Below are positions 33,214 to 55,560 of a stretch of DNA of 64,000 nucleotides, in pieces. Within the stretch, counting starts at the first letter, position 1, and the number at the start of each line of letters is the position of its first letter. The stretch covers positions 28,706,001 to 28,770,000 of the forward strand of contig OX597831.1 of the NCBI GenBank assembly GCA_951406725.2, read 5' to 3'. Both the position numbers and the translations under genes were made by a program. The DNA comes from Octopus vulgaris. Lineage: Eukaryota. Below the pieces are notes generated by a model. It was not told where the DNA came from and searched no databases. It saw only the letters and a list, made by a program, of their open reading frames with translations.

Positions 33214-33296
33214 ATGGCGTATCCAAAGATATTTACCGCATTTTTTGTACTAATTTTGATTGTGCACATCAAAGGTTACACTGCTGAGATGAAAAG
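33214..33296 (+). CDS. Coding exon 1: signal peptide MAYPKIFTAFFVLILIVHIKGYTAEMK
   Basis: ATG in gccATGG context, hydrophobic core, donor AG|gtaat at 33297 in phase 2, matching the next exon. Polypyrimidine tract and ttag acceptor at 33163-33164 imply 49 nt of 5'UTR in this exon. Confidence 0.85.
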
Positions 33297-33373
33297 GTAA
33301 TCACTCTCTCATTCTCTCTCTCTCGCTCTACCTCTCTCTCTCTCTCTCTCTCTATATATATATATATATATAC

Positions 33374-33672
33374 GGGCCGACAAAGCCTTGTGAGTGGATT
33401 GGTAGACGGAAACTGAAAGAAGCCCGTCGTATATATGTATATATATATATATATATTATGCATGTGTTTGTGTGTCTGTGTTTGTCCCTAGCATTGTGAC
33501 AACCGATGCTGGTGTGTTTATGTCCCCGTTACTAGCGGTTCGGCAAGAGACCGATAGAATAAGTACTGGGCTTACAAAAGAATAAGTCCCGGGGTCGAGT
33601 TGCTCGATTAAAGGCGGTGCTCCAGCATGGCCGCAGTCAAATGACTGAAACAAGTAAAAGAGATAAAAGAGT
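33374..33672 (+). mobile_element. SINE family A, 5'-truncated
   Basis: Identity to the family A body and tail. Confidence 0.9.
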
Positions 33673-33696
33673 AGAATATATATATATATATCTTCT

Positions 33697-34163
33697 TTTA
33701 TTCTCTTATTCTATAATTTTCTTCAGTCATTTGGCTGCGGCCATGCTGGAGCATCGTCTTTAGTCGAACAAATTGAGCCCAGGACTTATTCCTTCTAAGC
33801 CTAGCACTTATTCTATCGGTCTCTTTTGCCGAACCGCTAAGTTACGGGGACGTAAACGCACCAGCATCGGTTGTCAAGCGATGTTGGGGTGACAAACTCA
33901 GACGCACAAACATATACATATGCATATATATATATATATATATATATATATATATATATATATATATATATATATATATATATATATACATGTATATATA
34001 CGACGAGCTTCTTTCAGTTTCCGCCTACCATATCCACTAACAAGGCTTTGGTCGGCCTGAGGCTATAGTATAAAACACTTTCCCAAGATGCCATGCAGTG
34101 GGACTGAACCCGGAACCATGTGGTTGGTAAGCAAGCTACTTACCACACAGCCACTCCTGTGCC
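33697..34163 (-). mobile_element. SINE family A
   Basis: Full-length copy, tail-to-tail with 33374-33672. Confidence 0.9.
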
Positions 34164-35059
34164 TATCACTTTCTCTCTCTCTCTCTCTCTCTCTCTCACT
34201 CACTATCTCTTTCTCTGTCTATGTATGTATCTATCTATCTCTATCTATCTATCAGTGTCTACTTGTTTAGCTATTTATCTCTTTATCTATCTACACACAC
34301 ACACACACACACACACACACACACACGCATGCATATATGTATATCTATACGTATATACCCCACCATATATATGCGTATGTGTGTGTGTATTAATACGCAC
34401 ATATATATTTCTTGGTTGGTATCCAGCGTAATGGAGCACCACTGGGATTGAGGAATACCTCGACTTCTTTTAAACATATCTCTCGGAGAAGGTCACTTTG
34501 ATGAAAACCCAAATATGCAGCGAATGGCATTGAACATTTTGGGGATCTTTTGCATGCGTTTTAGAACATAGTACTCTCACATTCCAGAGCCTGTGACCCA
34601 TATTAACACTGGACAGTTTGCCCTGGCTTGTCTCTGGATCATGTCAATAGGGTGGGGAAGGTCTGTGAGGCGCTTTGCAAGTCTTATTGGAACTAAATAT
34701 TTAAGTTGTGCAATCGCCGGTGAGGCAACTATCCGAATCCCAGTCGAGTAGGAGGGCGCCGTGGCGTGCATGGAAATCGACGGTGCGAGCCCGGGTGGAG
34801 CTGACTATTGGTACAATAACCTCATGCACAGACATTGCTGGCATTTTGCATGGGCACTGGTCAATGATGGGCTTCCACGGTTACGAGCAGACAGCCAGAT
34901 ACATATATACATATCATCATATCTCTCTTTCTCTCTCTTTCTCTCTCTCTTTCTCTCTCTCTCTATACATATATATATATAAGATAAAGATAGTTATGGT
35001 CGGTTTATGGGTTAGCCCGGGTTTCACCTATATAACGCGTTTTGTTTTGCATTATCTGT

Positions 35060-35530
35060 TCAGACTCTAAATGTCGGTGGCTTATAACTTCACTTCAGAG
35101 TGGAGAAAGAAAAGGCCTCGTGGCTAGTTGTTCGACACATGTACATAGAATAAGGGTTAAGGGTTAAGTGCAAGGGATTATCTTCCTTAGACAGCTATCC
35201 ATAATCGATTTGGTTGCTTTGTGGGTACCAGGGTTTCAGTACGAATCTCCTGAATAGTAAGCAGGGTCCGAAGACTTTCATCTTGGAATTTGAGATGTTT
35301 CCTGGGTCGAAAGAGTTCTTTAATAATATTGTCGCCCGTTCAGTTATGCACAGCTTGCAATCCTTGCTCCCGTTGATGTAGGGGCCCAGTTTTTTCTAGG
35401 ATCTTCAAGGACTATGTGTGGAGATTATAGGCCACCGTCCATTAGGGCCTGAAGAGAAGCTGTATAGCTAAGCGCTTTATGGACGATGTATATACATCGC
35501 TTGGTTAAGCGATGGCTATACTCAAGAATG
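35060..35530 (-). mobile_element. Degenerate Penelope-like element, endonuclease C-terminus and 3' end
   Basis: Minus strand reads ILEK/GPYINGSKDCKLCITERATILL across a frameshift, resembling the W.I...PY.NG...C.LC..EK..I tail of PLE GIY-YIG domains. Confidence 0.55.
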
Positions 35531-36285
35531 AGAAAGCAACCATTACACACACACACACACACACACACACACACACACACACACACAACTTTAAATATAC
35601 ATTCACGCCTGTCTATTTATATGTTTGTTTATCTTTTACTATTAATTTTTCTCTCCGTTTCTCTATTTATAAATCTGTTTGTTTCTCCGTAAGTTTATGC
35701 TTATTTATTTTACTTATTTGTTTATATGGCTGGCTTTCCTTCCAATTTCTTTTTCTTATTATTCTTTCATCCTAATTTTCTTGTATTTTTTTCACATTCT
35801 GGTTTTATTTATTTATCTTTTTTATTAAATTTTTTTTTAATTTTTTGCCGCGATTCACATCTCTTCTGTATCCTTTTTCTTCTTTTTTCTCCGTATAATT
35901 TATCTCTTCTCTTTCCTCACTTAAGCTTCGAACCTCGTTTTCAAAACGGAACTACGAGATTTCGAGATTAGGGGAGAAAACAAAACAAACACAAAAAAAT
36001 ACAGCCATTTCTTTCACACAGATTCACAAAGAGTATATAAGTGATTTCAGCAATGAAGAGATAATTATTGTAGCGAATCTAGAAAAATGGGCGCCGATGC
36101 CATACCTTTTGGGACTTGAACCGAATACCGAAAGTGTTATTTCTGTTCTACAGATCTCATCTGCCACTCCTATTTTCAATGCAACAAAGTTTCTCGTTCA
36201 AAAGAGTTCAAAATATTCGTGGCATATATATATATATATATATATATATATATATATATATATATTTATTGTATATATATATATA

Positions 36286-53348: not shown

Positions 53349-53433
53349 CTCCATGATGACCGTCTTACCGTTTCTTCTGCACCTCTTCATTCTCGCTCTT
53401 TTTCTTATCATTTCCTCGTCTTTTTCCTTTCAG

Positions 53434-53516
53434 GTTGTCTCTAACGTTGAGTTGTTATATGAGACTCGAACGATATCCGATGGACGATCAGATTTGTTCC
53501 ATGGTTATGGAAAGTT
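53434..53516 (+). CDS. Coding exon 5: Cys loop (R)LSLTLSCYMRLERYPMDDQICSMVMES
   Basis: Strong polypyrimidine tract with ttcag acceptor, T|gtaagt donor, 83 nt (conserved size), C-x13-C signature. Confidence 0.97.
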
Positions 53517-53696
53517 GTAAGTATTACAGATATTTATTCATTGCATTCCCGCCTCAGCCTTTTTTTTATAACCTTTAGGGCAGCGGTTTTCAACTGGGGC
53601 TCCATATGGCCCTTGCCGTTCATATTGCCTTTGGGGGTCCATATAAGATTTTGTTGCTAAAAATTATGTGCAATAAATTGTTTATATTTCCACAAT

Positions 53697-54030
53697 GTGA
53701 AGGCGCATGGTTTAGTGGTTAGAGTGTCGGGTTCACAATCAGGAGGTTGTGAGTTCGATTCTCGGACCGGACTGTGCGTTGTGTTCTCGAGCAAGACACT
53801 TTATTTCACATTGCTCCTGTTCACTCAGCTGTAGAAATAGGTTTTGAGGTTACTGATGCCTTTGTCTTTCCCTTGGATAATATTAGTGGCGTGCAGAAGG
53901 GAGGCTGGTATTCATGAGTGACTGTTGGTCTTCCATAAACAACCTTGCCCGGACTTGTGCCTCGGAGGGGAGCTTTCTAGGTGCAATCCCTTGGTCATTC
54001 ATGACCGAAGGGAGTGGCTTTACCCCTATT
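53697..54030 (+). mobile_element. SINE family D, full length, inside a hAT-like MITE starting at about 53581
   Basis: A and B boxes (tggtttagtgg, gagttcgattc) plus a body shared with 22530-22780; host begins cagcggttttcaact. Confidence 0.75.
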
Positions 54031-54784
54031 TACTTCTACAATACACAAAATATTTTAACAATTTTTTATACAGTTCCTATCAATATTCGATTATAAAAGT
54101 ATAACGGAATTACGGAGATGTACTTGCATAGCAAGGGACCTGATCTGAGATCGTGTGCTGAAATAAAAACAATTGCCACGTGGAAGGTGTTTATAAGCCA
54201 TTTAAAAACACCTTCCACACTGCAACTTTATATATATATATATATATATATATATATATATATATATATATATATGTATCCATATACACGCGCAAAGTCG
54301 ACCTAGAGTGTTGTCTACTATAGCCTCGAGCCAACCAAAGCCTTGTGAGCGGATTTGGTAGACGGAAACTGAAAGAAGCCTGTCGTATGTGTGTGTGTGT
54401 ATGTGTTTATGTGTATGTATGTATATTAATCATGATATATTGATTCAAGTAATCCGTAGTAGTCATAAAAATCTCCTTAGTTTGTCATTATACAGGACAT
54501 GTAGAGTATATAGTAGTATACATGAGGAGAGAATAAGGAAAGTATATAGATATAAATGACGGAGAAATATTATGATGAAATTTATTTAACAATAAACAAC
54601 AAAACATCACGACAAATTTGCTTCAGTCAGCCAAAAACATGTAAATAGCTTACATTATCGTATTTAATAATAAATAAGTTACTTATATATGCGCATTAAT
54701 GCGAAATGCGAAACGTTTATTAAAGATAATGCAAAATTAGGGCTACTTCATCAGTTGAAAAAGGTTAGTTGTTGAATATATATA

Positions 54785-55190
54785 GGCGTAGGAGTGGCTG
54801 TGTGGTAAGTAGCTTGCTAACCAACCACATGGTTCCGGGTTCAGTCCCTCCGCGTGGCACCTTGGGCAAGTGTCTTCTGCTATAGCCCCGGGCCGACCAA
54901 TGCCTTGTGAGTGGATTTGGTAGACGGAAACTGAAAGAAGTCTGTCGTATATATGTATATATATGTGTGTGTGTGTGTTTGTGTGTCTGTGTTTGTCCCA
55001 CTAGCATTGCTTGACAACCGATGCTGGTGTGTTTACGTCCCCGTAACTTAGCGGTTCGGCAAAATAGACCCATAGAATAAGTACTGAACTTACAAAGAAT
55101 AAGTCCCGGGGTCGATTTGCTCGACTAAAGGTGGTGCTCCAGCATGGCCTCAGTCAAATGACTGAAACAAGTAAAAGAGTAAAAGAGTAA
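54785..55190 (+). mobile_element. SINE family A (young subfamily)
   Basis: Near-identical reverse complement of 47743-48143 and 48700-49124. Confidence 0.9.
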
Positions 55191-55422
55191 TACATACATA
55201 CGCATATTGTTCTTCAACAAGAATTGTGTCGAAAGTGACTTAGTGACTTCAAAGTTTCGACTTACTTTACTTTTAGCGAAATATCAAATACGTACTAGAC
55301 AAAAAAATATTGAGAAAGACTTCCATTAATTATGAAATTGCTTTTAATTCGATAGCCGTCTAACTTCTGACTTTATATCTCACCTTCTACTCTGTTCAAT
55401 GTTTGGATCTTGTCTTTTGCAG

Positions 55423-55560
55423 ACAGCTACAGTGCAGAAAATGTCTTCTTCAAATGGATAGAAACACAGAAACCAGTCGTTGTGGATCGAAGCATTGAGA
55501 TGCCACAGTACACTTTGAAAAAATATCATGCAACAGTTTGTAAAAAGGATTATGGCGAGG
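55423..55560 (+). CDS. Coding exon 6: loops B and F and start of loop C (Y)[11 protein letters not shown]...MPQYTL...VCKKDYGE
   Basis: ttgcag acceptor and G|gtgag donor, 138 nt (same as the equivalent GlyR exon), phase 1 to 1; lies within ORF 55410..55700. Confidence 0.95.

What the first reader, a model, noticed from the sequence alone, without database searches (positions are those of the whole stretch)
33214..55560. GlyR/GluCl-branch Cys-loop subunit with a non-canonical agonist site: candidate orphan cephalopod receptor
Seen: a clean 221-codon spliced ectodomain. Known: glycine binding in human GlyR alpha1 uses F63/R65 (loop D), S129 (loop E), E157/F159 (loop B) and Y202/T204/F207 (loop C); ecdysozoan GluCl adds a beta1 (loop G) arginine. 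By-eye alignment shows R65, S129, E157 and Y202 retained, but F63>L, R119>L, F159>Y, G160>S and T204>E (CKKDYGE versus CTKHYNT), and no beta1 Arg (QLYVSSVD). Inference: an acidic residue where the carboxylate-binding Thr normally sits fits neither glycine nor glutamate well. The ligand may be an amine or other small molecule, or this may be an accessory subunit. The loop C register is uncertain because the exon ends there.
Basis: partly seen in the sequence, partly recalled or inferred. Interest (0 to 1): 0.72.

Follow-up and report, generated by a model that had tools for sequence, protein, structure and literature searches.

The report
Octopus chloride channel, spliced binding loop
This octopus gene encodes an intact glycine-receptor-like channel, predicted to pass chloride, that has lost two key glycine contacts and splices the lid of its binding pocket in several ways, as do likely squid or cuttlefish relatives, so it likely responds weakly to an amino-acid-like molecule such as taurine or beta-alanine, with splicing likely tuning that response.

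Summary
Six exons give 221 codons and every listed substitution is real; the rest of the gene (PAR-type pore, M4) lies beyond the window. The loop C register is settled for the shortest form: 12 residues from cysteine to cysteine, Glu at the Thr204 position. New here: the loop C tip is alternatively spliced. A 21-nt microexon and a tandem CAG/CAG acceptor give four annotated isoforms; three were seen in transcript contigs, and all four forms recur in an unnamed, likely decapodiform, relative. It is not a GluCl of either type and not a vertebrate GlyR-alpha ortholog. An amine ligand is less likely because loop D Arg, loop E Ser and loop B Glu are kept; it is the only one of nine octopus GlyR-branch genes found that keeps the Arg. 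F159Y is harmless in GlyR; F63L and T204E matter. The Y-G-E loop also occurs in bivalves, so it is not cephalopod-only. Best reading: an orphan molluscan chloride channel for an amino-acid-like ligand, tuned by loop C splicing. Ligand untested.

The parts
33214..33296 (+). First coding exon: start codon and hydrophobic leader; a likely acceptor at 33164/33165 implies an upstream non-coding exon
   Evidence: matches annotated N-terminus; signal peptide judged by eye
38354..38418 (+). Exon 2: N-terminal helix
50302..50369 (+). Exon 3: beta1/loop G; Tyr60 (F44) and Ser62 (no GluCl loop G Arg)
51928..52154 (+). Exon 4: loop D (Leu79 at 51946-51948, Arg81 at 51952-51954), loop A (Ser118, no lophotrochozoan GluCl Arg), loop E (Ser146)
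53434..53516 (+). Exon 5: Cys-loop and loop B Glu174 (53510-53512)
55423..55560 (+). Exon 6: loop B end, loop F, first half of loop C; Glu221 (T204 position) at 55557-55559, then a phase-1 donor
   Evidence: both borders confirmed by transcript contigs
55561..64000 (+). Start of the intron that splits loop C. Beyond the window lie the 21-nt microexon (G000:C18:28793946-28793966), the M1-M3 exon with PAR motif and tandem CAG/CAG acceptor (starts 28829935 with Ala or 28829938; ends 28830356) and the last exon with M4 and stop (28875434-28875592)
   Evidence: microexon included in contigs of runs X3, X7, X15, X6 and skipped in X12, X18; last exon joined in 4 of 4 runs

Best explanation
The gene encodes an intact, spliced pentameric channel subunit of a mollusc GlyR-like radiation, predicted to be chloride-selective, that likely binds an amino-acid-like zwitterion (taurine, beta-alanine, GABA or glycine at high concentration) weakly, and whose four loop C splice forms likely tune that binding. 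Shown: intact frame, splice junctions, PAR motif, the residue set. Inferred: the ligand amine sits among Phe116, Glu174, Tyr176, Tyr219 and Phe224; its acid end binds Arg81 and Ser146 of the neighbouring subunit; loss of Phe63 and Thr204 lowers affinity and widens the pocket; adding 0, 1, 7 or 8 residues right after Glu221 changes how loop C caps the pocket and so shifts potency or efficacy.
For: AF2 model pLDDT 90 and best structural matches are GlyR alpha2/alpha3. M2 carries PAR. R65, S129 and E157 are kept in 5 of 5 coleoid, 18 of 18 bivalve-group and 10 of 10 gastropod-group rows (related rows, groups drawn by me). Loop D Arg is absent from amine-gated channels; a loop B Glu abolishes glutamate gating and suits glycine/GABA (PMC4338433). 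F44Y and F159Y are tolerated, F63A raises glycine EC50 to 89 mM. An annelid GlyR-like channel, Alpo6, prefers taurine (227 uM) to glycine (22 mM), a precedent for the profile (PMC4801368). It is the best octopus hit to a mammalian GlyR alpha1 and the only one of 9 GlyR-branch genes found with loop D Arg. Splicing: 4 annotated isoforms; of 8 runs laid, 4 show microexon+Ala, 1 Ala only, 1 neither, 2 are uninformative; an unnamed relative has all four forms in 58, 2, 36 and 10 of 106 contigs. In the long-form model both strands persist and the insert is a tip loop.
Against: No functional data. Replacing the loop C Thr by a side chain without a hydroxyl severely impairs GlyR and GABA-A agonist recognition, and Glu there should repel an acid; together with F63L this may remove amino-acid binding altogether. 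No F63L or T204E data were found. The insert sequence is poorly conserved (7 residues in octopods, 9 in the relatives), which fits neutral tolerance. Alpo5/6 sequences were not obtained, so their likeness to this site is untested. An oocyte screen of 41 O. vulgaris channels with glycine, GABA and beta-alanine at 1 mM exists; whether this gene was in it could not be seen, and a silent result there would count against part of this reading.
Confidence: 0.45

Rival explanations
1. Self-capping site: Glu221 replaces the ligand's acid group and pairs with Arg81 across the interface, so the short form is opened by a small amine or cation, by pH, or is partly open at rest, and the microexon breaks or shifts this pair.
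For: Glu sits at the position whose side chain contacts the agonist carboxylate next to the loop D Arg; Y-G-E and the Arg co-occur in coleoids and 13 of 18 bivalve-group rows; the splice site follows the Glu codon directly; a pH-gated annelid relative exists (Alpo7).
Against: No interface model or distance was obtained; gastropod and other bivalve relatives keep the Arg without the Glu; known amine-gated chloride channels lose the Arg.
Confidence: 0.2
2. Obligate heteromer subunit: it supplies the Arg/Ser face, or a structural face, to octopus paralogs that all lack the loop D Arg, and does not gate alone.
For: 8 of 8 other GlyR-branch genes found lack the loop D Arg; the principal-face Thr is lost and loop C tolerates inserts.
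Against: Principal-face residues F99, E157, Y159, Y202 and F207 are kept in all 5 coleoid rows, which a pure complementary subunit would not need.
Confidence: 0.2
3. An ordinary glycine receptor whose substitutions compensate each other; the splice forms matter little.
For: Best octopus match to GlyR alpha1; F159Y raises glycine potency.
Against: Two strong determinants are lost; one clade with vertebrate GlyR alpha is rejected, p-AU 5.9e-08.
Confidence: 0.1
4. A glutamate-gated chloride channel like Aplysia GluClAc.
For: Falls in a mollusc group that includes GluClAc1 (85/92, not starred); no GluClAc-type gene was found in the genome, so the role may be vacant.
Against: No loop A Arg (Ser118) against 12 of 12 in the GluClAc-type rows, loop B Glu instead of Gln, no loop G Arg; one clade with them rejected, p-AU 0.019.
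Confidence: 0.05

Closest known systems
Vertebrate glycine receptor alpha subunits
   Same: Fold, two disulfide loops, PAR pore, M2-M3 loop, R65/F99/S129/E157/Y202/F207; 41-44% identity
   Different: F63L, T204E, L117M, R119L, G160S; separate clade; variable loop C
Aplysia GluClAc1 and GluClAc-type molluscan channels
   Same: Nearest characterised invertebrate sequence retrieved, 44% over the ectodomain; same mollusc group in the tree
   Different: They have loop A Arg and loop B Gln and, in the 12 rows retrieved, no loop D Arg; this gene is the reverse. GluClAc2 was not retrieved.
Alvinella Alpo5/Alpo6 (glycine, taurine, GABA) and Alpo7 (pH)
   Same: Lophotrochozoan GlyR-like anion channels; Alpo6 is taurine-preferring (PMC4801368, passages and part 1 of the Discussion read)
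   Different: Sequences not obtained; orthology and site residues untested
Insect GRD and pHCl loop C splice variants (PMC2064938, passages read)
   Same: Splicing inserts residues into loop C; the pHCl insert differs in length and sequence between beetle and bee
   Different: Other subfamilies; described as differential splice-site use, not a cassette microexon combined with a tandem acceptor; the passages report no functional test
Uncharacterised bivalve Y-G-E channels (Argopecten, Pecten, Mizuhopecten, Crassostrea, Solemya)
   Same: R65, S129, E157, Tyr159 and Y-G-E loop C; most have a 13-residue loop like the +Ala isoform
   Different: Keep Phe63 (16 of 18); sister relation neither recovered nor rejected (p-AU 0.069)

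Membership tests
Pentameric (Cys-loop) ligand-gated channel, GlyR/GluCl branch | Neur_chan_LBD and Neur_chan_memb domains, Cys-loop, second loop C disulfide, four helices | tested here: met
   Pfam above cut-offs; model and Foldseek
Anion-selective pLGIC | PAR motif before M2 | tested here: met
Anion-selective pLGIC | Measured chloride selectivity | not testable with these tools
   needs reversal potentials
Vertebrate GlyR alpha | One clade with GlyR alpha subunits | tested here: not met
   p-AU 5.9e-08
Amino-acid-agonist motif receptors (GlyR, GABA-A, GluCl) | Three principal aromatics, loop D Arg, loop E Ser | tested here: met
   F116, Y176, F224, R81, S146 (motif)
Amino-acid-agonist motif receptors (GlyR, GABA-A, GluCl) | Loop C Thr | tested here: not met
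   Glu, Ala or Val precede G-N-F in the four isoforms
Ecdysozoan GluCl | Loop G Arg; small residue at the first loop B position | tested here: not met
   Ser62, Glu174
Lophotrochozoan GluCl (Aplysia- and Schistosoma-type) | Loop A Arg | tested here: not met
   Ser118; Arg in 12 of 12 GluClAc-type rows; p-AU 0.019; Schistosoma sequences not identified in the tree
Amine-gated chloride channels (HisCl, MOD-1, LGC-55) | Loss of the loop D Arg | tested here: not met
   Arg81 kept
Ortholog of Alvinella Alpo5/6/7 | Tree placement with those sequences | not tested
   sequences not retrieved
eMIC/SRRM-regulated neural microexon | UGC near the acceptor, CUAAY branch point, long AG-free zone | tested here: inconclusive
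   All present, but constitutive exon 2 shows the same; tissue bias not measured

The most novel reading that the evidence does not exclude
Splicing switches the chemistry of the agonist site: in the short isoform the loop C Glu acts as a tethered pseudo-ligand on the loop D Arg and makes an amine-, cation- or pH-gated chloride channel, while the microexon isoforms free the Arg for an amino-acid-like ligand; one cephalopod gene would then encode receptors for different signals, using a loop C microexon that may be old in molluscs.
Probability: 0.12. Interest if true: 0.82.

Novelty: new variant of a known kind. Interest (0 to 1): 0.5.

Why it matters
No canonical GlyR and no GluClAc-type gene turned up in this octopus genome (lower-bound searches), so this gene is the best candidate for amino-acid-gated inhibition outside the GABA-A-type genes. 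PMC12901041 (passages read) states that the identities of further ligand-gated chloride channels behind picrotoxin- and gabazine-insensitive responses remain to be determined. Four natural isoforms that differ only at the loop C tip give a ready test of how loop C length sets agonist potency, and may explain a negative screen if only one form or 1 mM ligand was tried.

Tried and rejected
A motif scan for exon 2 failed first because the usual YD..RP motif has drifted; a phase-based scan found it. No downstream exon was found in the window. No RNA holder was listed as such; spliced joins show transcripts, but contigs give no levels or tissues. The microexon-without-Ala form was not seen in the 8 runs. 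A C>A difference at 55488 is synonymous and not A-to-I. Splice-regulatory motifs do not separate the microexon from constitutive exons. Rfam: 0 matches. ESM Atlas gave only the generic family. One-to-one orthology with scallop genes was not shown: the sister group is unresolved, union with the gastropod group is rejected (p-AU 0.023) and with the bivalve group not (0.069); these groups and the GluClAc-type group were named after seeing trees. No complex prediction was run. Ten paper searches listed no paper on this gene or on a functional test of a loop C splice insert; most listed papers were seen only as listings, and the library lacks most subscription journals.
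Full report
Gene structure. The six exons in the window have canonical borders and give 221 codons plus one base. The window is G000:C18:28706001-28770000. In the next 120 kb lie an M1-M3 exon with a PAR motif and a last exon with M4. The coding span is 136 kb, with introns of 32, 36 and 45 kb after exon 6. Four isoforms built from the genome (413, 414, 420, 421 aa) match four annotated Octopus vulgaris proteins exactly, so the gene is annotated, under an automatic GlyR-like name. 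Models of the short and long forms are confident (pLDDT 90 and 84) and the best structural matches of the short form are vertebrate GlyR alpha subunits.

The site. Numbering was read from the alignment to GlyR alpha3. They are not equal in weight. The table in PMC6130964 (passages read) gives glycine EC50 49 uM for wild type, 62 uM for F44Y, 13 uM for F159Y, 2 mM for F63Y and 89 mM for F63A. PMC4006026 (passages, and section 6 read whole) states that a loop C Thr without its hydroxyl severely impairs agonist recognition and that amine-gated chloride channels lack the loop D Arg. PMC4338433 (parts 1-3 of 5 read) shows that glutamate needs a loop G or loop A Arg and that a loop B Glu abolishes it. 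This protein has neither Arg and has the Glu. So glutamate is unlikely, glycine is likely weak (F63L, T204E), and the kept Arg81, Ser146 and Glu174 point to a ligand with both an amine and an acid end. That last step is inference.

Loop C splicing. The exon border falls right after the Glu221 codon. A 21-nt exon at G000:C18:28793946-28793966 with AG and GTAAGG flanks adds seven residues, and the next exon has a tandem CAG/CAG acceptor that adds or omits an Ala. Of 20 runs holding the M1-M3 exon, 8 were laid: X3, X7, X15 and X6 join exon 6 to microexon to Ala; X12 joins exon 6 to Ala; X18 gives the shortest form; X5 ends at the border and X14 starts in the intron. Argonauta has the same long form. 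Two unnamed Logan clusters at 76-77% identity, which I infer to be squid or cuttlefish from their tree position, carry a nine-residue insert at the same point; one shows all four forms in 58, 2, 36 and 10 of 106 contigs (contig counts, not expression). Their gene structure was not checked. In the long-form model both flanking strands persist and the insert forms a less confident tip loop. No isoform puts Thr before G-N-F. A Ruditapes paralog also has annotated isoforms differing at this tip, and several gastropod sequences have 17-residue loops, which hints at an older feature; untested.

Relatives. In a 62-row tree (a subset of 106 rows, chosen by me) the four coleoid rows form a 100/100 clade inside a 32-row group whose named rows are all molluscs (85/92, not starred) that also holds Aplysia GluClAc1; the sister group is unresolved (106-row quick tree). 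AU tests reject union with vertebrate GlyR alpha (5.9e-08), GluClAc-type channels (0.019) and the gastropod group (0.023), not with the bivalve group (0.069). Y-G-E in loop C occurs in 13 of 18 bivalve-group rows, and only 34 of 103 aligned rows with both cysteines have Thr at the 204 position (6 of 109 rows dropped), so loss of this Thr is common in the set. Leu63 is the coleoid mark: 5 of 5, against Phe in 16 of 18 and 9 of 10 rows. The tree lacks Alpo5/6/7 and GluClAc2, and HisCl and pHCl were not identified by name.

Paralogs. Four own-genome searches (lower bounds) gave eight other GlyR-branch genes: five on C13, one on C5, two on C7. None keeps the loop D Arg (the C7:101.7 Mb read rests on a weak alignment) and none was seen with a loop A Arg. 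Four further genes look GABA-A-type (label recalled from motifs); three of them have the loop D Arg. This gene is the best hit to a mammalian GlyR alpha1.

Literature. The preprint 10.1101/2025.04.02.646353 (parts 1-2 of 10, passages, and the recording methods read) screened 41 O. vulgaris channels at 1 mM; its listed ligands include glycine, GABA, glutamate, beta-alanine and monoamines but not taurine, histamine or pH. Its gene list is in a supplement I could not see, which may bear on novelty and ligand. PMC4801368 (passages, part of Discussion) gives the taurine-preferring Alpo6. PMC2064938 (passages) describes loop C inserts in insect GRD and pHCl, so loop C splicing is known in kind. PMC4178172 (passages), PMC13335744 (outline), 10.1101/2025.10.31.685654 (part 1), 10.1101/2021.02.24.432780 (passages), PMC12309072 and PMC12901041 (passages) added context only. 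The scan's own notes held nothing by sequence and nothing on this gene among the 8 shown of 220.

Verdict. A real, intact, spliced orphan of the molluscan GlyR-like radiation, a new variant of a known kind. Most likely a low-affinity amino-acid-type chloride channel tuned by loop C splicing (0.45); self-capping amine or pH gating (0.2), obligate heteromer (0.2), plain GlyR (0.1) and GluCl (0.05) remain. Interest 0.5: the conserved four-way splicing of the agonist lid makes a sharp experiment, but family, pore and type of splicing have precedents and the ligand is unknown.

Noticed in passing
G000:C13 39.5, 39.7, 42.3, 79.45, 80.1 Mb; C5 54.6 Mb; C7 3.49 and 101.7 Mb (L015-L057): Eight GlyR-branch paralogs with Thr, Glu or Tyr in place of the loop D Arg, His at the R119 position in most, and varied M2 ends (several with Arg or Lys); a candidate orphan set. 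The C7 101.7 Mb gene is very divergent.
   Followed up: partly
P0035/P0180/P0181 (Ruditapes); P0209, P0220, P0228, P0233 (gastropods): Loop C tip isoforms in a clam paralog, and 17-residue loops holding a Ser-Met-Ile stretch in gastropods; possibly an old molluscan loop C microexon.
   Followed up: no
G000 whole genome: A search with Aplysia GluClAc1 returned the same genes, none with the loop A Arg or the GluClAc-type M2 end; octopus may lack this GluCl type.
   Followed up: partly
window 39729-40643 (-): Retroelement remnant in intron 2; zf-RVT match just under the Pfam cut-off.
   Followed up: partly
window 32820-32915: Degenerate CCCTAA-like repeat just upstream of the first coding exon.
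   Followed up: no
P0001, P0006, P0007: O. bimaculoides and O. sinensis models stop at or skip past the loop C exon and lack M1-M3, likely because of the long introns; they would not yield a working clone.
   Followed up: partly
L003:3896-3945: CTAAC branch-point match and a TGCATG motif upstream of the microexon; not discriminating against constitutive exons except for TGCATG (1 of 9 acceptors).
   Followed up: partly
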